NCBI GenBank assembly: GCA_903937035.1
Contig: CAIZXS010000017.1
Location: 660 to 64,659 of the forward strand
Source: an uncultured bacterium
GTDB taxonomy: Bacteria > Patescibacteriota > Minisyncoccia > Moranbacterales > UBA2206
Length of the DNA: 64,000 bases
Reading direction: 5' to 3'
The notes below the pieces were generated by a model. It worked only from the letters and a program-made list of their open reading frames with translations, made no database searches and was not told where the DNA came from. Position numbers and translations under genes: made by a program. Shown here piece after piece: positions 21,891-28,940 of this stretch. Numbering within the stretch: position 1 is the first letter of the stretch; every line of letters starts with the position of its first letter.

Positions 21891-24527
21891 ATGTCAATCC
21901 TAAAAAAAATATTCGGTTCGAATGAAAGAGAGATTGGAAAGCTAAAGCCATTGGTGGAAAAAATCAATGCGCTAGAAGAGCAGATGGTCAAATTGTCTGA
22001 TGATCAGTTGCGCTCAAAAACAGTTGAGTTTAAAAAAAGAATCGCCGAAAAAGAGACGCTCGATGCGCTTTTGCCGGAAGCTTTCGCGGTTGTGCGGGAA
22101 ACGGTGAAGCGAGTAGATGGAAAGCGGCTGTTTGATGTGCAGATGATGGGTGGTATCGTTCTTCACAATGGAAAAATTGCTGAGATGAAAACTGGCGAAG
22201 GAAAAACTCACACTTCACTTCTTCCAATGTATCTCAATGCGCTCACTGGCAAAGGCGTTCATCTGGTGACCGTGAATGATTATTTGGCTAGACGTGACTG
22301 TAATTGGATGGGTGGGATTTTATATTTCTTGGGAATTTCGACGGCTTGTATCATTCATGATGCGTCATATATTTATCAACCAAAAGTGGAGGATGATGAT
22401 GAGGTGAGCGTAGAGATGGAAAACTTGGTGCCAATAGCACGCCGTGAAGCCTATGCCGCTGACATTACCTATGGTACGAACAATGAATTTGGTTTTGATT
22501 ATCTGCGCGACAATATGGTGCCGACCTTGGAGCACATGGCTCAGCGCGATTTGAATTATGTGATTGTGGATGAAGTGGACTCAATTTTGATTGACGAAGC
22601 TAGAACTCCGCTCATCATTTCTGCAGCGGACAGTGAATCGACAAAAATGTATGAGCAGTTTGCGACGCTTGTCCCGAGATTGAAGAGAGAAGATGATTAT
22701 ACTGTTGAAGAAAAAACTAAATCGGTAACTATCACAGAAAGCGGAATTGCAAAGATTGAATCGTGGCTCAATGTTGGAAACATCTATGAAGCAGGGAAAA
22801 TTACCTATGTGCATCACTTGGAACAAGCATTGAAAGCCCAGGTTATTTTTCAATTGGATCGGGACTATGTCGTGAAAGATGGTGAGGTGATTATTGTGGA
22901 TGACTTCACGGGGCGCCTCATGCCTGGACGACGTTATAGCGAAGGGTTGCATCAAGCGATTGAAGCGAAAGAGCATGTGCGGGTGCAAAAAGAATCGAAG
23001 ACTCTTGCGACCATTACGTTCCAGAATTATTTTCGGATGTATAATAAAATTTCTGGTATGACTGGAACTGCGTCGACTTCAGCAGAAGAATTTTTCAAAG
23101 TGTATAAGATGGATGTGACGGAAATTCCCACTAATCGTCCGGCTATTCGCAAGGATATTCCCGATGTTGTTTATAAGTCAGAAAAGGGGAAATTTAATGC
23201 GATTGTGGAAAAAATCAAAGAAGTGAATAAGCTTGGCCAGCCAATTTTAGTTGGAACAATTGCGGTGGAAAAATCTGAATATCTCAGTACTTTGCTTTTG
23301 AAATCTGGTGTTCCGCACGAGGTGCTTAATGCGAAAAATCATGAACGTGAAGCGCAGATTGTGGCTAAAGCGGGACATGTCGGTTCGGTGACGATTGCGA
23401 CTAATATGGCAGGTCGTGGAACTGACATCAAGCTTGGCGAAGGCGCGCGTGAGCTCGGAGGACTCTTTATTTTGGGAACAGAGCGGCATGAGGCGCGGCG
23501 CATTGACAATCAGCTCCGCGGTCGGGCGGGACGACAGGGGGACCCTGGTGCTTCGCAGTTTTTTGTTTCTTTGGAGGATGAGTTGATGCGTCGTTTTGGC
23601 GGAGATAATCTCATTAGTCTCATGACAAAACTTGGCCTTCCTGAAGATCAGCCGATTCAAAATCCGATCATATCGAGAACCATTGAAAATGCACAATCGA
23701 AAATTGAAGGTTTTAATTTCGATATCAGAAAGCATATTTTGGATTACGATGACGTGATGAATAAGCAACGTGAAATACTATACAAAAAAAGACGCGCCGT
23801 TCTCGAAGCAACCAATATCAAGCCTGAGATTATGGATAATATTCGCGATGAGATTGAAGGAGCAGTTTCTTCAAGCCTCACCGCCGAAGATGGCAATCTG
23901 GAGGTTGAAAAAATTGCGGAAAATATTCATGGTATGATGGTACTTTCTCCTGACGTGCAAGTTAAGCTCAAAGAAATAGTTGAAGATAGAAATAAAAATA
24001 CTGCAGAACTTATTGGCGCTGCGACGGAATATCTGGCTGGTTTTGCTAAAGAGGTTTATAATCGCAAGGAGAAGGAATTGGGGGAAGCAAATATGCGCTC
24101 GATTGAAAAAAGCATAGCACTTCAAACAATTGATGTGATGTGGATGAGTCATCTTGACGAAATTGATTATCTGCGCGAAGGCATCGGTCTTCGTGGCTAT
24201 GGCCAACGTGACCCATTAGTGGAATACAAACGAGAAGCGTTTTCGATGTTTTCCTATTTGATGGAAAATATCAAATCGACCATTACCCATACAATCTTTC
24301 GCGTTTCGGCTGCGCCAGTAGAAGTGGAAAGAACTATCCCAGAAAAAAATCTTAATTTTAGCGGAGCGGAGGAGTCGGAGTCATTTGCTTCGGCGCGAGA
24401 AATTCAAGATGGTGAGGTTCGTGAAGCACCAAAGCAAAAACCAATTATTAATGATGACAAGATTGGTCGAAATGATGCCTGCCCTTGCGGATCAGGGAAA
24501 AAATATAAGAAGTGTTGCGGCAAATAA
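21891..24527 (+). CDS. secA: Preprotein translocase ATPase SecA
   Basis: Length and DEAD-like motor motifs consistent with SecA; C-terminal zinc finger CPCGSGKKYKKCCG. Confidence 0.95.
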   Translation: MSILKKIFGSNEREIGKLKPLVEKINALEEQMVKLSDDQLRSKTVEFKKRIAEKETLDALLPEAFAVVRETVKRVDGKRLFDVQMMGGIVLHNGKIAEMKTGEGKTHTSLLPMYLNALTGKGVHLVTVNDYLARRDCNWMGGILYFLGISTACIIHDASYIYQPKVEDDDEVSVEMENLVPIARREAYAADITYGTNNEFGFDYLRDNMVPTLEHMAQRDLNYVIVDEVDSILIDEARTPLIISAADSESTKMYEQFATLVPRLKREDDYTVEEKTKSVTITESGIAKIESWLNVGNIYEAGKITYVHHLEQALKAQVIFQLDRDYVVKDGEVIIVDDFTGRLMPGRRYSEGLHQAIEAKEHVRVQKESKTLATITFQNYFRMYNKISGMTGTASTSAEEFFKVYKMDVTEIPTNRPAIRKDIPDVVYKSEKGKFNAIVEKIKEVNKLGQPILVGTIAVEKSEYLSTLLLKSGVPHEVLNAKNHEREAQIVAKAGHVGSVTIATNMAGRGTDIKLGEGARELGGLFILGTERHEARRIDNQLRGRAGRQGDPGASQFFVSLEDELMRRFGGDNLISLMTKLGLPEDQPIQNPIISRTIENAQSKIEGFNFDIRKHILDYDDVMNKQREILYKKRRAVLEATNIKPEIMDNIRDEIEGAVSSSLTAEDGNLEVEKIAENIHGMMVLSPDVQVKLKEIVEDRNKNTAELIGAATEYLAGFAKEVYNRKEKELGEANMRSIEKSIALQTIDVMWMSHLDEIDYLREGIGLRGYGQRDPLVEYKREAFSMFSYLMENIKSTITHTIFRVSAAPVEVERTIPEKNLNFSGAEESESFASAREIQDGEVREAPKQKPIINDDKIGRNDACPCGSGKKYKKCCGK

Positions 24528-24579: not shown

Positions 24580-25047
24580 ATGAAACAACCAAAATTCAAA
24601 CCAAAGCCAGGTCAAGTTGATTTCACCAATGCGCGGTGGGCGCCGGTGATGAATTGCGTTTTGAAATATCAAGGAAAAATTCTGATCGTGCAAAGGAGTA
24701 AAGGGTTGAATTTCTATCCTGAATATTGGAACGGTATTTCTGGATTTTTGGATGATGCGAAAAGTTTAAAGCAGAAAATTCAGGAAGAGCTAAAGGAAGA
24801 GTTGGGAATAGCAAAAAGCAAAATTGCCAAGATTCAGTTGGGTGAGATATTCGACCAAGAAGAGTCGAAATATGGCAAAACTTGGATTGTTCATCCGGTC
24901 TTGGTGGAGGTGACGACAGACAAACTCAGACTTGACTGGGAGGCAAAGAATTATGAGTGGGTTAAATTATGCGAAATTAAAGGATTAAAGCTTTTGCCAG
25001 GATTTTTGGAGGTTTTGAAAAAGTTAGAAAAGTGGATTGCCAAATAA
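24580..25047 (+). CDS. NUDIX family hydrolase (divergent Nudix box)
   Basis: GFLDDAKSLKQKIQEELKEELGI is a degenerate Nudix box. Confidence 0.5.
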   Translation: MKQPKFKPKPGQVDFTNARWAPVMNCVLKYQGKILIVQRSKGLNFYPEYWNGISGFLDDAKSLKQKIQEELKEELGIAKSKIAKIQLGEIFDQEESKYGKTWIVHPVLVEVTTDKLRLDWEAKNYEWVKLCEIKGLKLLPGFLEVLKKLEKWIAK

Positions 25048-25058
25048 GAAATACTAAA

Positions 25059-25484
25059 ATGGAAAATAAGCGACAACTAATCGTGGTTATCGCCCTTATC
25101 AAAGACGAAAACGGGAATACTCTACTACAAAAACGGGTGGATGCTATGATTCCTAGTGCGGATGGAAAATGGGAATTTCCTGGTGGGAGAATTGATTATG
25201 GGGAATCGCCAGAAGATGCTATAAAAAGAGAGTGTGGGGAGGAAATTGGCTGTGAAATTGAAGTGGAGGGATTGCTTCCGTTGGTGCAATCGACGATATG
25301 GAAAAGAGCTGATGGAGATAGTCAACACGTTTTGGTTTTTTGTTATCGGGCGAGACTTAAAAAAGGAACGCCAAGTCCGCTAGATAAAAAGGTCTCTGAA
25401 GTTAGATGGTTTTCGAGTGAAGAGATTGTCGAGCTAAATACCTTAAGTGGAATCAAGGAGCTTATTGAATTATCAAATAAATAA
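25059..25484 (+). CDS. NUDIX hydrolase
   Basis: Canonical Nudix box GGRIDYGESPEDAIKRECGEEIG. Start set at the MENKRQ methionine; the ORF extends to 25032. Confidence 0.75.
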   Translation: MENKRQLIVVIALIKDENGNTLLQKRVDAMIPSADGKWEFPGGRIDYGESPEDAIKRECGEEIGCEIEVEGLLPLVQSTIWKRADGDSQHVLVFCYRARLKKGTPSPLDKKVSEVRWFSSEEIVELNTLSGIKELIELSNK

Positions 25485-25487
25485 CAA

Positions 25488-25958
25488 ATGTATAAAATTT
25501 TTAGTTTTGAAAAATCCATTGGAGCAGTAGTTTTCCGGCGAGAAGGCGAGAAAGTTAAATATTTGCTTTTGCGTTATCCCGGTGGTCATTGGGGATTCAT
25601 CAAGGGTCATGGTGAAAATGATGAAACTGACGAGGAAACATTGCGCCGAGAGGCAACCGAAGAAACGGGTTTGACTAACTTGATAATTAAGCCGGGTTTT
25701 TTGGGTCAAGAAAAATATTATTATACAGCGAAAAATGAGGAAAAAGAAAAAAGATTGAAGGCTGAGAGGGGCTGGATGATTTTCAAAAAAGTCTTATATT
25801 ATTTAGCTGAGACGGATCAGGCAAAAATCCTATTATCGCATGAGCACAGGGATTATATTTGGATGGAGTATCATCAGGCGATAAATCGCGTGAGCAATAG
25901 TAACTCGAAAAAAGTGCTCGAAAAAGCTAATAAATTTTTGATTGAAAATGGTGGGTAA
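25488..25958 (+). CDS. NUDIX hydrolase
   Basis: Nudix box GHGENDETDEETLRREATEETGL. Confidence 0.75.
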   Translation: MYKIFSFEKSIGAVVFRREGEKVKYLLLRYPGGHWGFIKGHGENDETDEETLRREATEETGLTNLIIKPGFLGQEKYYYTAKNEEKEKRLKAERGWMIFKKVLYYLAETDQAKILLSHEHRDYIWMEYHQAINRVSNSNSKKVLEKANKFLIENGG

Positions 25959-26003: not shown

Positions 26004-27686
26004 ATGAATAGTCGACAAAAACTCAGATTGAAATTTTCCCTTGTGATTGTCCTTGCAATCCTAGCGGGACTCATAGCTTATCCTCAGGCGGTATCGAAAA
26101 TACCTCGTCTTTTTGGTATTTTGGATAAACCTAAGGTTAATCTGGGATTGGATTTGCAAGGCGGAATTCATCTGGAGTATAAGGCTGATACAAGCAAGGT
26201 GGACAGCGCTCAGGTGGGGGACGCTATGCAAGCCGTGCAAGATGTCATTGAGCGCCGTGTTAATGCTTTCGGAGTGGCGGAGCCTGTAGTCTATACGACA
26301 AAATCTGGAGGAGAACAGCGCTTAGTTGTGGAGCTCGCTGGCGTGAAGGATATTAATGAGGCCAAGAAAATGATTAGTGAAACTCCATTTTTGGAATTCA
26401 AGGAGGAGAAAATGACTGAGCCGGAAAAAATTCCCGAGGAAATCATCACTAGTGCTAATGAAAAAAGCAAAGCAAAAGCGGAAGATATTTTAAAAAAGGC
26501 TTTGGCGGGAGAAGATTTTGCCGTTCTAGCGAAAGATAATAGCCAGGATCCTGGATCGAAAGATAATGGGGGTGTTTATGATTTTCAAAAAAAAGGTTCA
26601 TTTGTGCCTGAATATGAAGCGGTGATTTTTGATGAAAATGTTAAAAATGACGAGGTGTATTCGAAATTAGTGGAAACTCAATTTGGTTGGCATATTATTA
26701 AAAAAATTGAAATCAAAGGAGATGGGGACGATCGTGAATTCAAGAGCGCACATATTTTAATTTCCAAAATGACGCAACCACAGCCACAGATGGATTTTGC
26801 CTCAACGGGACTTTCTGGCAAGAATCTGAAAAGTGCTAGCGTGCAGTTTAAAAGCCAGGGCCTTTCTGAGCCGGAAGTTTCTTTGAAATTCGACGACGAA
26901 GGCACAAAACTTTTTGCGGATATTACCAAAAAGAACATTGGGAAACGTGTAGCGATATATCTAGATGGAGAAATTATTACCGCGCCAACCGTGCAGAGTG
27001 AAATATTAAATGGTGAAGCCGTTGTTACGGGAAATTATACCGTCGAAGAGGCGAAGACTTTAGTTAAGAGACTAAACGAAGGTGCATTGCCAGTGCCTAT
27101 CAGCTTGGTGAGTCAGCAGTCAGTTGAAGCAACTCTTGGCCAGGTTTCGCTTGAAAAGAGTTTGAAGGCAGGAATGATTGGCTTGCTTCTTGTGATTATT
27201 TTCATGCTCATCTATTATCGCTTTTTGGGATTGATTGCTTCTGTGGCACTCCTTATTTATTCAGCTTTAATGATTAGCATCTTCAAGTTATCTGGTTTTA
27301 CACCATGGCAGATTACACTTACTCTTCCAGGAATCGCAGGGTTTGTGCTTTCGATTGGAATGGCGGTAGATGCGAATATTTTAATTTTCGAGCGGACCAA
27401 AGAAGAGGTGCGCAAAGGTCGCAATATTTTGAGTGCAATCGAGGAAGGTTTTAAGCGCGCTTGGACTTCGATTCTGGATGGCAATATGTCATCCATTATT
27501 ACGGCTTTAATTTTGGTAGAAATGGGAACAGGATTTGTGAAAGGTTTTGCAGTTACGCTTATCATTGGAGTGCTTGCCTCAATGTTCACGGCAGTTGTCA
27601 TCACAAGAACAATTTTGCGCTTTATTTTAGGGCCGTGGATTGAAAACAGAATGTGGTTAGTGGGCGCTAAGAAAAATGAATCATAA
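26004..27686 (+). CDS. secD: Protein translocase subunit SecD with a parvulin-type PPIase domain inserted in the periplasmic P1 domain
   Basis: SecD N-terminus LGLDLQGGIHLEY and C-terminal TM bundle. Between them, DFAVLAKDNSQDPGSKDNGGVYDF...FGWHIIK is a PpiC/parvulin signature. Confidence 0.8.
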   Translation: MNSRQKLRLKFSLVIVLAILAGLIAYPQAVSKIPRLFGILDKPKVNLGLDLQGGIHLEYKADTSKVDSAQVGDAMQAVQDVIERRVNAFGVAEPVVYTTKSGGEQRLVVELAGVKDINEAKKMISETPFLEFKEEKMTEPEKIPEEIITSANEKSKAKAEDILKKALAGEDFAVLAKDNSQDPGSKDNGGVYDFQKKGSFVPEYEAVIFDENVKNDEVYSKLVETQFGWHIIKKIEIKGDGDDREFKSAHILISKMTQPQPQMDFASTGLSGKNLKSASVQFKSQGLSEPEVSLKFDDEGTKLFADITKKNIGKRVAIYLDGEIITAPTVQSEILNGEAVVTGNYTVEEAKTLVKRLNEGALPVPISLVSQQSVEATLGQVSLEKSLKAGMIGLLLVIIFMLIYYRFLGLIASVALLIYSALMISIFKLSGFTPWQITLTLPGIAGFVLSIGMAVDANILIFERTKEEVRKGRNILSAIEEGFKRAWTSILDGNMSSIITALILVEMGTGFVKGFAVTLIIGVLASMFTAVVITRTILRFILGPWIENRMWLVGAKKNES

Positions 27687-28587
27687 AAAAATGCTTAATA
27701 TCATTTCCAAAACCAAATACGCCTATATTTTCTCTATCACGCTAACAGTGCTTTGCATTGGTGCGCTCTTTACTTGGGGATTAAAATACGGGATTGATTT
27801 TACGGGGGGAACTTTAATAGAGGTAAAATTTGAAAACAGTCTTCCAGCTAATCAGGAGCTAGAAGATGTTTTAAAAGATTTAAATCTCAAAAGTCTCACT
27901 TTGCAATCGACCGGGAATAATTCTGTACTCATTCGCTATGCTTCTGAAGATGATAAAATCAACCAAACTGTTCTGGAAGCTTTGTTGAAGAAATATCCAG
28001 AATCGAAAAATTTGCGAACAGATTATGCTAATGCCTCAGTTTCAAGCGAGCTGAAAACCAAATCCCTAATGGCGATTTTTTGGGCAGTGGCAGGCATTAT
28101 GGCCTATATCGCTTGGGCTTTCCGGCGTGTGTCGCACCCAGTGGCATCCTGGAAATATGGCGCAGGAGCTGTGGTCGCGCTCCTTCACGATATTCTCATT
28201 ACGGTGGGAGCTTTTTCGGTTTTAGGTCATTTTTGGGGTGTTGAGGTGGGCGTGCCATTCGTGGCGGCGCTTCTCACTATTTTAGGCTTCTCAGTTCATG
28301 ATACGATTGTGGTTTATGATCGCACGCGAGAAAATCTGCAAAGAAGTTCAGCTAAGGAGAAATTCCCTGAAATCGTCAATCGTAGTCTCAATGAAACTCT
28401 AGTTCGCTCAATCAACACCTCACTCACCGTGATTATAACGCTGCTTGCAATCTATATTTTCGGCGGAGAATCAATTAAACATTTTTCTTTGGCGCTACTG
28501 ATTGGAATAACTTTCGGAACCTATTCATCGATTTTTATTGCTTCAGCGCTACTTGTGACAAGTTATAATTTACAAATTAAAAAGTAA
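27676..28587 (+). CDS. secF: Protein translocase subunit SecF
   Basis: GIDFTGGTLIEVKF plus six TM helices. Confidence 0.88.
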   Translation: MNHKKMLNIISKTKYAYIFSITLTVLCIGALFTWGLKYGIDFTGGTLIEVKFENSLPANQELEDVLKDLNLKSLTLQSTGNNSVLIRYASEDDKINQTVLEALLKKYPESKNLRTDYANASVSSELKTKSLMAIFWAVAGIMAYIAWAFRRVSHPVASWKYGAGAVVALLHDILITVGAFSVLGHFWGVEVGVPFVAALLTILGFSVHDTIVVYDRTRENLQRSSAKEKFPEIVNRSLNETLVRSINTSLTVIITLLAIYIFGGESIKHFSLALLIGITFGTYSSIFIASALLVTSYNLQIKK

Positions 28588-28616: not shown

Positions 28617-28940
28617 TTGCATTTTTCATTTACTATGTGGAACCCATTTAAAAAAAATACCGGAACAAACGATGATCAAAGCTCTGGCGTTGTAAAAGCT
28701 GCTTCTGCGAAAGTTGATGATAAGAAAAAGGAAGATGATTCGCCGAAAATGAATATGCTTCAGCGATTGGCAATGAAAAGAATGGAGCGGATGAGCCCGC
28801 AGGAAAAGGCCAAAATGATGCAGGAGGTATTGAAACCTGAGAATAAGGATAAATTGCTCGGTGCAATGGAGATGATGCGAAAGAGTGGACAGATAACACA
28901 GGAGCAATATGATATGGCAAAGCAAAAAATGGACATATAA
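28617..28940 (+). CDS. Hypothetical charged protein
   Basis: 107 aa, K/E/M-rich. Confidence 0.35.
   Translation: MHFSFTMWNPFKKNTGTNDDQSSGVVKAASAKVDDKKKEDDSPKMNMLQRLAMKRMERMSPQEKAKMMQEVLKPENKDKLLGAMEMMRKSGQITQEQYDMAKQKMDI

What the first reader, a model, noticed from the sequence alone, without database searches (positions are those of the whole stretch)
26004..27686. SecD carries an embedded parvulin-type peptidyl-prolyl isomerase domain
A ~100-residue segment matching PpiC/parvulin (DFAVLAKDNSQDPGSKDNGGVYDF...VGEVYSKLVETQFGWHIIKKIE) lies between the SecD N-terminal TM/P1 start and the rest of the periplasmic domain (..VAIYLDGEIITAPTVQSEI..). This would place a foldase directly on the periplasmic head of the translocon accessory complex. 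That is plausible for an organism lacking separate PrsA/SurA, but it is not the canonical SecD architecture.
Basis: partly seen in the sequence, partly recalled or inferred. Interest (0 to 1): 0.6.

Follow-up and report, generated by a model that had tools for sequence, protein, structure and literature searches.

The report
SecD with built-in, circularly permuted parvulin foldase
The protein-export helper SecD of this Moranbacteria (candidate phyla radiation) genome carries a complete prolyl-isomerase (parvulin) domain spliced into its outward-facing arm. The domain is wired in an order not described before, with its first strand moved to the end, so a protein-folding catalyst is fixed next to the secretion channel's exit.

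Summary
ORF 26004-27686 (+) is a genuine SecD (TIGR01129, 390 bits). It carries a significant parvulin domain (Pfam Rotamase_3, E=2.6e-21, aa 150-236) between the P1-base element SecD_1st (aa 75-135) and the P1 head (aa 267-364).

- Nothing precedes helix alpha1.
- The canonical first strand, with its catalytic His ("EFKSAHILIS", aa 245-254), follows the last strand ("GWHIIKKIEIK") as a hairpin.

Support for the permutation:
- The whole catalytic tetrad is conserved (D182, T225, H230, H250).
- An in-silico de-permutation test with controls is positive.
- The isolated insert gives a high-confidence AlphaFold2 model (pLDDT 95, pTM 0.88) that matches solved parvulins.
- The two histidines are kept or lost together (124 both, 4 neither, 3 core only, 0 strand only).
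- The strand co-evolves with beta2, beta4 and alpha4.

The architecture is widespread, but only in Patescibacteria-type genomes. Relatives carry tandem or SecDF-fused versions in which a canonical parvulin sits beside a degenerate first core, and close SecDs lack any insert. I found no literature on a SecD-parvulin fusion or a permuted parvulin. Databases call these proteins just "SecD".

Best reading: a translocon-tethered PrsA/SurA-like foldase. Enzymatic activity, and whether the genome lacks a separate PrsA, remain untested.

The parts
26004..27686 (+). secD gene (560 aa) with embedded parvulin domain
   Evidence: ORF list. TIGR01129 secD 390 bits. Pfam domain series. AF2 full-length model has mean pLDDT 81.9, and its best structural matches are SecDF 5yhf/5xan/3aqp.
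26004..26225 (+). N-terminal TM helix 1 and Sec_GG motif (aa 1-74)
   Evidence: Pfam Sec_GG 44-64. AF2 helix 3-25.
26226..26417 (+). SecD_1st, the N-terminal part of the P1 base (aa 75-138). Its last strand, LEFKEEKMT, leads into the insert.
   Evidence: Pfam PF21760 75-135, E=4e-17. Aligns to T. thermophilus SecDF 29-120. AF2 strand 129-138.
26418..26435 (+). Linker 1 into the parvulin (aa 139-144, EPEKIP). There is no beta1-like strand here.
   Evidence: Coil in both AF2 models. The Pfam Rotamase_3 match starts only at profile position 31 of 116.
26436..26717 (+). Parvulin core, alpha1 to beta4 (aa 145-238). It carries D182 (26547-26549), T225 (26676-26678) and H230 (26691-26693).
   Evidence: Pfam Rotamase_3 E=2.6e-21. 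PDB sequence hits to PrsA, SurA P2 and PpiC. pLDDT 87-92 in the full model and 96-99 in the isolated model. D182 is nearly invariant, H230 is invariant and T225 is Thr or Ser across homologs.
26718..26735 (+). beta4-beta1' hairpin loop (aa 239-244, GDGDDR). It is an insertion hot-spot in relatives.
   Evidence: Relatives carry 20-40 aa insertions here. The distance from core end to the trailing His has median 13 aa, maximum 137, and exceeds 20 aa in 19 sequences.
26736..26765 (+). Displaced beta1 strand (beta1', aa 245-254, EFKSAHILIS) with catalytic His250 (26751-26753)
   Evidence: A249-H250-I251-L252 is invariant in 21 Moranbacteria sequences, and H250, I251 and L252 are >=90% conserved in 94. 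It is a DSSP strand at pLDDT ~88 (full model) and ~95 (isolated model). The de-permutation test gives +7.5 to +11.6 bits with the profile start moving from ~31-34 to 15, against <=+1.4 bits for 9 controls. His-His co-variation. MI couplings to beta2, beta4 and alpha4.
26766..26786 (+). Linker 2 back to the P1 head (aa 255-261, KMTQPQP)
   Evidence: Coil with lower pLDDT.
26787..27095 (+). SecDF P1 head subdomain (aa 262-364)
   Evidence: Pfam PF22599 267-364, E=2.4e-30. Aligns to T. thermophilus SecDF from residue 158.
27099..27638 (+). SecD transmembrane domain, TM2-6 (aa 366-545)
   Evidence: Pfam SecD_SecF_C and MMPL. AF2 long helices 380-542.
27676..28587 (+). secF (303 aa), overlapping the end of secD by 11 nt. 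It is the partner subunit.
   Evidence: TIGR00966 SecF 290 bits. Pfam SecD_SecF_C E=8e-56.
21891..24527 (+). Long ORF (878 aa) upstream on the same strand, read as secA from its sequence. It gives genomic context only and is not part of the fusion.
   Evidence: ORF and translation. The SecA assignment rests on my reading of the sequence (DEAD-type motor motifs and the C-terminal CPCGSGKKYKKCC zinc-finger tail). It was not run through a profile search.

Best explanation
This is a SecD subunit of the SecDF proton-driven export motor. A complete but circularly permuted parvulin-type peptidyl-prolyl isomerase domain (order alpha1...beta4-beta1') has been inserted at the junction between the P1 base and the mobile P1 head.

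Shown:
- The two-family domain composition and the insertion site.
- The permuted order of the parvulin segments.
- Conservation of the parvulin catalytic tetrad (His250 on the displaced strand, Asp182, Thr225, His230).
- A confident prediction that the insert folds as one compact four-stranded parvulin lobe, held by two adjacent short linkers.
- Wide conservation of this form in Moranbacteria and other Patescibacteria.

Inferred:
- The lobe sits outside the membrane next to the SecYEG exit and the substrate-binding P1 head. There it would act as a tethered PrsA/SurA-like foldase or holdase, binding emerging unfolded chains and catalysing Xaa-Pro isomerisation as SecDF pulls them out.
- It would therefore do in cis what membrane-anchored or recruited parvulin chaperones (PrsA, PpiD, SurA) do in trans in other bacteria.
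- The permuted form is related to the tandem and canonical forms by gain or loss of a whole canonical parvulin in the beta4-beta1' hairpin loop, or by duplication followed by truncation of a SurA-like tandem.
For: - Domain calls and boundaries.
- Same architecture in homologs: all 120 closest 90%-identity clusters (70-100% identity, named Moranbacteria, Moraniibacteriota or Parcubacteria) have Rotamase plus SecD domains, as do a further 120 from a profile search.
- Distribution among relatives: of the 150 best 50%-identity representatives, 83 have a parvulin core between SecD_1st and the P1 head (or, for fragments, beside one of them). The other 67 have none, with the two SecD elements joined by as few as 7 aa.
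- Permutation, profile evidence: the Pfam and PDB alignments never cover beta1 at the N-terminus (profile start 31; Par10 aligned from residue 13). Moving the trailing strand in front of the core raises Rotamase_3 from 80.8 to 88.3 bits (window), 98.4 to 108.7 (P0124) and 94.3 to 105.9 (P0140), and extends the match to profile position 15. Nine control strands or shuffles give <=+1.4 bits and a profile start of 28-31.
- Contrast with canonical forms: tandem and SecDF-fused relatives match the profiles from position 1-4.
- Structure prediction: the full model has pLDDT 87-92 over the insert and a beta4 (228-238) / beta1' (245-254) hairpin. The isolated insert has pLDDT 95.2 and pTM 0.88, with the trailing strand at ~95.
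- Structural matches: Foldseek finds B. fragilis PPIase 8hm4 (TM 0.71, rmsd 2.1 A, 36% identity), then PrsA, SurA and CsPin.
- His co-variation in 131 non-redundant single-core inserts: 124 keep both, 4 keep neither, 3 keep only the core His, 0 keep only the strand His; Fisher p=3e-6.
- Co-evolution: the top MI/APC couplings of the trailing strand are to beta2 (V191, Y192), beta4 (I235, I237) and alpha4 (Y204).
- Functional context: AlphaFold models dock SurA's parvulin domains on the SecDF P1 head (PMC9987972). A Mycoplasma parvulin lipoprotein cross-links to SecD (bioRxiv 10.1101/2024.09.05.611430). The P1 head binds preproteins and rotates between F and I forms (PMC8082313).
Against: - No biochemical data exist, and several parvulin domains of chaperones (SurA P1, PpiD) are catalytically inactive despite the fold.
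- The substrate-pocket motif is 'GGVYDF' here rather than the usual 'GGDLGF'.
Pairing of beta1' between beta2 and beta4 is therefore inferred from DSSP, pLDDT, the absence of any other candidate strand, and co-variation, not read from contacts.
- The His-His and MI statistics are not corrected for phylogeny, and part of the MI signal is one coordinated subfamily switch.
- The full-length pTM is only 0.56, so the position of the lobe relative to the P1 head and SecYEG is unknown.
- Whether the genome lacks a separate PrsA-like protein is untested.
Confidence: 0.62

Rival explanations
1. The insert is a non-catalytic chaperone or docking module. It keeps the parvulin fold but works only as a holdase or binding surface (like PpiD's parvulin or SurA P1), or as a structural spacer that modulates P1-head movement, with no prolyl isomerase activity.
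For: Inactive parvulin domains are common in translocon-associated chaperones (PpiD; PMC8082313). Some SecD relatives clearly have dead cores yet retain the domain: P0126, P0142, P0189 and core #1 of the tandem forms. So the fold has value without the tetrad. The pocket motif here is GGVYDF instead of GGDLGF.
Against: In the Moranbacteria lineage all four tetrad residues are conserved: H230 is invariant, D182 and H250 are >=90% conserved, and T225 is Thr or Ser in the 21 sequences inspected. The two histidines are lost only together. This is the pattern expected for selection on an active site, not just a fold.
Confidence: 0.25
2. The 'AHILIS' strand is only a vestige of a lost second parvulin domain, or simply part of the linker or P1 head. 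The parvulin is then a truncated, beta1-less domain and not a true circular permutant.
For: Tandem parvulins (SurA-like, Bacteroidota loci and 8hm4) naturally have 'beta4 - ~17 aa - beta1 of the next domain'. SecD relatives with two cores exist. All SecD-parvulin forms have a homologous trailing strand, even where the preceding core has its own canonical beta1.
Against: A parvulin core without its central strand would have a hole between beta2 and beta4. The isolated insert is predicted as one compact domain (pTM 0.88) with the strand at pLDDT ~95. The strand's His is conserved and co-varies with the core His. The strand couples with beta2, beta4 and alpha4. No alternative strand exists upstream of alpha1. 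The vestige origin and present-day function as beta1' are compatible: this is the classic duplication-truncation route to permutation.
Confidence: 0.08
3. Assembly or gene-calling artefact: a parvulin gene wrongly fused to secD by mis-assembly or a frameshift.
For: None found. This is a metagenome-type genome, so the possibility has to be considered.
Against: The identical protein is on 10 contigs from four sources. More than 200 distinct clusters and 21 GTDB species genomes have the same in-frame architecture. The insert is flanked on both sides by SecD P1 segments within one ORF.
Confidence: 0.01

Closest known systems
SecD/SecDF of Thermus thermophilus and Deinococcus radiodurans (PDB 3AQP, 5YHF, 5XAN)
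   Same: TM1, Sec_GG, P1 base, P1 head and TM2-6 all align (E=2e-79). The full model's best structural matches are these entries. A separate secF gene follows.
   Different: About 132 aa (a parvulin domain) replace the ~37-aa segment Tt 121-157 at the start of the P1 head. No solved or described SecD has a PPIase domain.
PrsA (Bacillus, Listeria, Streptococcus) lipoprotein foldases
   Same: Extracytoplasmic, membrane-tethered parvulin acting on proteins leaving SecYEG in single-membrane bacteria. The closest NCBIfam and PDB sequence matches include PrsA.
   Different: PrsA is a separate lipoprotein whose canonical-order parvulin is inserted in an NC chaperone domain and which dimerises. Here there is no NC domain, the tether is SecD itself, and the strand order is permuted.
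SurA / Bacteroides fragilis periplasmic PPIase (PDB 1M5Y, 8HM3/8HM4) and PpiD
   Same: Parvulin chaperones that associate with the Sec holotranslocon. SurA's parvulin domains are modelled on the SecDF P1 head (PMC9987972). 8hm4 is the best structural match to the insert (TM 0.71, 36% identity), and its sequence aligns through 'GFHIIQLIEKRGDR-INTRHILLK'.
   Different: Those are separate proteins with canonical-order tandem parvulins: P1 has its own upstream beta1, and the His strand after P1 belongs to P2. In SecD, nothing precedes alpha1 and the following strand completes the same domain.
Minimal parvulins (E. coli Par10/PpiC 1JNS, CsPin 2RQS, human Pin1/Par14 catalytic domain)
   Same: Same fold elements and the His/Asp(Cys)/Thr(Ser)/His tetrad. 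Foldseek aligns 85 columns to CsPin.
   Different: The order is beta1-alpha1...beta4 in all of these, and alpha1...beta4-beta1 here. Sequential aligners therefore cover only alpha1-beta4.
Mycoplasma pneumoniae Mpn444/Mpn436 parvulin lipoproteins
   Same: In another wall-less or reduced-genome lineage, a surface parvulin foldase is physically associated with SecD by cross-links.
   Different: A non-covalent partner within a large trimeric lipoprotein, not a domain of SecD.

Membership tests
SecD (TIGR01129 / Pfam SecD_1st + SecDF_P1_head + SecD_SecF_C) | Whole-protein profile score above the curated cutoff | tested here: met
   TIGR01129 scores 390 bits against a cutoff of 244.4, and all Pfam SecD modules are above their gathering scores.
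SecD (TIGR01129 / Pfam SecD_1st + SecDF_P1_head + SecD_SecF_C) | Six-TM RND-like topology with a large P1 loop between TM1 and TM2, plus an adjacent SecF partner | tested here: met
   The AF2 model has helix 3-25, then the P1 domain, then long helices 380-542. Its best structural matches are SecDF structures. secF overlaps the 3' end of secD.
SecD (TIGR01129 / Pfam SecD_1st + SecDF_P1_head + SecD_SecF_C) | PMF-driven enhancement of protein export | not testable with these tools
   Needs genetics or biochemistry.
Parvulin / PpiC-type PPIase (Pfam PF00639, PF13616) | Significant profile match above the gathering score | tested here: met
   Rotamase_3 scores 76.8 bits (cutoff 22.5) and Rotamase 62.4 bits (cutoff 21.7).
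Parvulin / PpiC-type PPIase (Pfam PF00639, PF13616) | Four-stranded antiparallel sheet with four helices (parvulin fold) | tested here: met
   The isolated-insert AF2 model (pLDDT 95.2) has four strands plus helices. Foldseek matches PPIase 8hm4 at TM 0.71 and rmsd 2.1 A, then PrsA, SurA and CsPin. This is a prediction, not an experimental structure.
Parvulin / PpiC-type PPIase (Pfam PF00639, PF13616) | Canonical segment order beta1-alpha1-alpha2-alpha3-beta2-alpha4-beta3-beta4 | tested here: not met
   beta1 lies after beta4. Profile matches start at position 31 of 116, and the de-permutation test restores positions 15-30. It is therefore a permuted variant of the family, not a canonical member.
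Parvulin / PpiC-type PPIase (Pfam PF00639, PF13616) | Catalytic tetrad His-Asp/Cys-Thr/Ser-His (Pin1 H59/C113/T152/H157; the residue mapping is from my knowledge of Pin1 and Par14) | tested here: met
   H250, D182, T225 and H230 are present and conserved across homologs.
Parvulin / PpiC-type PPIase (Pfam PF00639, PF13616) | Measured cis-trans prolyl isomerase activity | not testable with these tools
   Needs an enzyme assay.
PrsA-type foldase (NCBIfam PRK03095 and related models) | Lipoprotein with an N/C chaperone domain flanking the parvulin, and a whole-protein score above the cutoff | tested here: not met
   PrsA models score 39-45 bits against cutoffs of 303-361, and only over the parvulin. 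There is no lipobox or NC domain, and the flanks are SecD P1. It may work like PrsA but is not a PrsA family member.

The most novel reading that the evidence does not exclude
SecD-parvulin proteins are the first natural circular permutants of the parvulin fold, and the Patescibacteria preserve the whole evolutionary series. In the tandem and SecDF-fused forms, a complete canonical parvulin would be nested inside the beta4-beta1' hairpin of a (now degenerate) permuted parvulin, which is itself nested inside the SecD P1 domain: a three-level domain-in-domain architecture. Functionally, the covalent fusion would be 'Rosetta-stone' evidence that parvulin chaperones act at the SecDF P1 head in bacteria generally. 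It would mean that PMF-driven head movement is mechanically coupled to a foldase, which hands exported chains from motor to chaperone in cis.
Probability: 0.35. Interest if true: 0.8.

Novelty: new variant of a known kind. Interest (0 to 1): 0.66.

Why it matters
Three reasons.

1. It bears on how chains leaving SecYEG are passed to extracytoplasmic folding factors, which is still debated. The current evidence for a SecDF P1-head / parvulin-chaperone contact is low-resolution EM, AlphaFold docking and cross-links. A conserved covalent fusion at that site in a large bacterial radiation is independent evolutionary support. It also offers a simple single-polypeptide system for studying the coupling structurally.

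2. It adds a new topology to a heavily studied enzyme fold (Pin1, Par14, PrsA, SurA), apparently with the intermediates of the rearrangement still present in related genomes. That makes it useful for protein-evolution and protein-engineering work.

3. It shows how genome-reduced Patescibacteria economise by welding an accessory foldase onto the export machinery. It also flags that current annotation ('SecD') hides the extra function.

Tried and rejected
- A reversed-strand control for the de-permutation test was uninformative because 'HILIS' is nearly palindromic. I replaced it with other SecD strands and shuffles.
- The search for related loci with the very diverse alignment A4 failed because it had no conserved stretch. 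I re-ran it with A5.
- The listing of cluster members gave almost no taxon names for the divergent representatives.
- I considered that PDB 8hm4 might itself be a permuted parvulin, because it aligns through the trailing His strand. I rejected this after reading Bacteroidota homologs, which have an upstream beta1 for P1 and a full P2 after the His strand.
- The full-length model against the PDB returned only SecDF and RND pumps, with no parvulin hits.
- Tsukazaki 2011 (PMC3697915) is not held, so I do not quote exact head/base residue boundaries of T. thermophilus SecDF.
- Literature searches for parvulin + 'circular permutation' or 'circularly permuted', SecDF + rotamase, and SecD + 'PPIase domain' + Patescibacteria found nothing relevant. 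Absence from this open-access library is not proof of absence.
- The claim that the organism lacks PrsA or SurA could not be tested beyond the window.
Full report

Yes. The window has an ORF at 26004..27686 on the + strand encoding 560 aa. Pfam places these domains on it in this order:
- Sec_GG, aa 44-64
- SecD_1st, aa 75-135 (E=4e-17)
- Rotamase_3, aa 150-236 (E=2.6e-21, 76.8 bits against a gathering score of 22.5); Rotamase PF00639, aa 144-235 (E=8e-17)
- SecDF_P1_head, aa 267-364 (E=2.4e-30)
- SecD_SecF_C, aa 366-541

NCBIfam's SecD equivalog-domain model TIGR01129 scores 390 bits (cutoff 244). PrsA and PpiC models hit only aa ~131-287 and stay far below their whole-protein cutoffs. secF follows and overlaps secD by 11 nt. 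A long ORF that I read as secA lies about 1.5 kb upstream, with three NUDIX genes in between.

Against T. thermophilus SecDF (3AQP), aa 41-135 align to Tt 29-120 and aa 268-556 to Tt 158-441. About 132 residues therefore replace about 37 at the start of the P1 head.

**2.

All profile and PDB alignments start after the first strand of the fold. Rotamase_3 is matched from profile position 31 of 116. E. coli Par10 is aligned only from its residue 13, so its His8 strand has no counterpart N-terminal of helix alpha1.

Directly after the last strand, however, the sequence reads '...FGWHIIKKIEIK-GDGDDR-EFKSAHILISK...'. The second part is a textbook parvulin beta1 motif. Six lines of evidence support a permutation:

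- *Conservation.* A249-H250-I251-L252 is invariant in 21 Moranbacteria SecDs at 70-100% identity, along with G228-W229-H230-I231 and D182, and T225 is always Thr or Ser. In a 94-sequence alignment going down to 48% identity, H230 stays invariant and D182, H250, I251 and L252 are >=90% conserved. These residues correspond to the Pin1 H59/C113/T152/H157 hydrogen-bond tetrad (the mapping is from my knowledge of Pin1 and Par14).
- *De-permutation test.* Pasting the trailing strand in front of the core raises Rotamase_3 and pulls the match back to profile position 15, and Rotamase PF00639 back to position 1. The scores go from 80.8 to 88.3 bits (window), 98.4 to 108.7 (P0124) and 94.3 to 105.9 (P0140). 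Nine controls (other SecD beta-strands, shuffles of the same strand) add at most 1.4 bits and leave the start at 28-31.
- *Structure prediction.* In the full-length AF2 model (mean pLDDT 81.9) the insert is the most confident extramembrane part (87-92). Its elements are helix 145-167, helix 172-179, strand 191-196, helix 202-209, short strands at 217-218 and 223-224, strand 228-238 and strand 245-254. The last two are joined by a six-residue turn. Folded alone, aa 139-262 gives pLDDT 95.2 and pTM 0.88, and the trailing strand is a DSSP strand at ~95. No other strand is available to fill the central beta1 position.
- *Fold comparison.* Foldseek matches the isolated model to B. fragilis PPIase 8hm4 (TM 0.71, rmsd 2.1 A, 36% identity), then to PrsA, SurA and the minimal archaeal parvulin CsPin. 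CsPin aligns over 85 columns, which is the alpha1-beta4 part that a sequential aligner can cover.
- *Co-variation of the two histidines.* Among 131 non-redundant single-core inserts, 124 have both His, 4 have neither, 3 have only the core His (the trailing residue is Gln) and none has only the trailing His. Fisher p=3e-6, not corrected for phylogeny.
- *Co-evolution.* The strongest MI/APC couplings of the trailing strand are to beta2 (V191, Y192 with F246, K247), beta4 (I235-A249, I237-F246) and alpha4 (Y204-F246). That is the neighbourhood expected for a central beta1. Part of this signal is one coordinated subfamily switch, so it is supportive and not decisive.

**3. How widespread is it, and in what forms?**

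- The exact protein occurs on 10 contigs from four sources. All 120 nearest 90%-identity clusters (70-100% identity) carry Rotamase plus SecD Pfam domains. They are named only 'SecD' and come from Candidatus Moranbacteria, Moraniibacteriota or Parcubacteria. A profile search from divergent members gave 120 more with the same architecture.
- An exhaustive HMMER search of 1.84 billion 50%-identity representatives with the P1 region found 314 proteins at E<=1e-30.
- I mapped the best 150 with HMMs built from the alignment. Of these, 83 carry a parvulin core between SecD_1st and the P1 head (or, for fragments, next to one of them). The other 67 have none, and in those the two SecD elements are joined by as few as 7 residues.
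- The inserts fall into three groups:
  - *Single permuted core*, like the window (about 530-640 aa).
  - *Two-core forms* (650-710 aa SecD, or 1000-1100 aa SecDF fusions). A first core without upstream beta1 and without the catalytic His is followed by a conserved 'SHIL' strand. Then comes an intact second core that matches the Pfam profiles from position 1-4 (canonical order), and then a trailing strand homologous to ours but without a conserved His.
  - *Still longer versions* (780-940 aa).
- The beta4-beta1' loop is an insertion hot-spot even within Moranbacteria: median 13 aa, up to 137.
Twenty are single-core, and one Magasanikiibacteriota genome is tandem.
- All 21 are Patescibacteria-type. 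A few bins are labelled Lysobacteraceae, Gammaproteobacteria or Bdellovibrionales, but their contigs have 30-44% GC in most cases, so I regard the labels as unreliable.
- Every hit in other phyla was a stand-alone PrsA-, SurA- or PpiD-like protein.

**4. Where did the permuted form come from?**

This section is inference.

Canonical tandem parvulins such as the Bacteroidota SurA-like proteins (and 8hm4) already contain the slice 'alpha1...beta4 - short linker - beta1 of the next domain', with about 17 residues between the two His positions. There, however, P1 has its own upstream beta1. So duplication followed by truncation is a plausible route.

Within SecD, the His pattern points to a nested topology for the two-core forms. 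The dead first core goes with a His-less trailing strand, and the active second core goes with the conserved upstream SHIL. That suggests a complete canonical parvulin sitting in the beta4-beta1' hairpin of the outer permuted one. The single and tandem forms would then differ by one whole-domain insertion or deletion.

**5. How it most likely works.**

The established model comes from the literature (PMC8082313; PMC6028853). SecDF uses the proton-motive force to swing the P1 head between F and I forms. The head has an amphiphilic cavity that binds emerging preproteins and pulls them from SecYEG.

Separately, parvulin chaperones are found at the translocon:
- PpiD/YfgM associates with SecYEG.
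- SurA binds the holotranslocon, and AlphaFold consistently docks its P1/P2 parvulin domains on the SecDF P1 head (PMC9987972).
- In Mycoplasma, a parvulin lipoprotein cross-links to SecD.

The Moranbacteria protein makes this association covalent. The lobe hangs from two adjacent short linkers (aa 139-144 and 255-261) exactly where the chain passes from base to head.

My best reading, at about 0.6 confidence, is a cis-acting, translocon-tethered foldase or holdase with a functional prolyl-isomerase site. The main rival, at about 0.25, is a catalytically silent chaperone or docking module. A 'vestigial strand only' reading and an assembly artefact are both unlikely.

The orientation of the lobe relative to the head is not predicted reliably (full-length pTM 0.56).

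**6. Comparison with known families, and novelty.**

The protein is a bona fide SecD, since the defining profile, topology and SecF partner are all met. Its insert belongs to the parvulin superfamily: profile, predicted fold and tetrad are met. It fails the canonical segment order, so it is a permuted variant. It is not a PrsA family member, because it has no NC domain or lipobox and its scores are far below cutoff, although it probably works like one.

I found no paper describing a SecD-PPIase fusion or a permuted parvulin. The library is open-access only, and domain databases already record Rotamase hits on these proteins, so the bare domain co-occurrence is implicitly 'known' to databases.

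I rate it a new variant of a known kind, with interest 0.66. It is not a new principle. It is a clean, widespread and previously undescribed architecture that bears on an open mechanistic question (the handover from SecDF to parvulin chaperones), and it adds a new topology to a classic enzyme fold.

**7. Caveats.**

- There is no experimental evidence.
- Strand pairing is inferred, not observed.
- The statistics are not phylogeny-aware.
- The census is incomplete.
I can only say that no second parvulin is encoded in this 64-kb window.

Noticed in passing
window 24580-25958 (+): Three consecutive NUDIX hydrolase genes (155, 150 and 156 aa; Pfam PF00293 E=1e-9, 4e-23 and 4e-15) lie between the upstream secA-like ORF and secD. 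The first two overlap by 16 nt. A triple NUDIX array inside a sec gene cluster is unusual.
   Followed up: partly
window 28617-28940 (+): A 107-aa Lys/Met/Gln/Glu-rich ORF sits directly after secF and has no Pfam match. I did not test whether it is a real gene or a small Sec-associated partner.
   Followed up: partly
L022 2356-3777, L024 2329-3804, L048 2368-3762, L063 2389-3753 (Bacteroidota SurA-like genes); PDB 8hm3/8hm4: In these tandem parvulins the histidines are split between domains. P1 has the beta4 His (GFHLIQ) but no beta1 His (EVEVGQIVM). P2 has the beta1 His (TRHILLK, ~17 aa after P1's beta4) but no beta4 His (VRILWLK). Foldseek aligned our permuted model to 8hm3/8hm4 over 108-119 columns, longer than the alpha1-beta4 core. 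It may be worth checking in the crystal structure whether P2's first strand contacts P1.
   Followed up: partly
L015 (JAACEG010000012.1), L013, L002, L006, L010: Contigs carrying Patescibacteria-type SecD-parvulin genes are labelled Lysobacteraceae (29.8% GC), Gammaproteobacteria (38% GC) or Bdellovibrionales in their records. These are probably mis-binned or mislabelled MAGs.
   Followed up: partly
P0128, P0139, P0148, P0272, L033 (650-710 aa); P0143, P0151, P0161, P0170 (1000-1100 aa SecDF); P0185, P0218, P0253 (780-940 aa): These SecD/SecDF relatives have larger inserts. A degenerate first parvulin core lacks an upstream beta1. It is followed by a conserved SHIL strand, an intact canonical core and a trailing strand. 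Some have further parvulin-like repeats, which suggests nested domain insertion.
   Followed up: partly
window 26418-26435 and 26766-26786 (aa 139-144 and 255-261): MI/APC shows couplings between the two linkers (P140, I143 and P144 with Q258, P259 and Q260). This would fit the linkers running side by side as a stalk, but it may be an alignment artefact in variable regions.
   Followed up: no
whole window: GC skew is positive in every 2-kb bin (cumulative skew rises monotonically). All the genes examined around the locus (the secA-like ORF, the three NUDIX genes, secD, secF, pheS) are on the + strand. This is consistent with one replichore with strong gene-strand bias.
   Followed up: no
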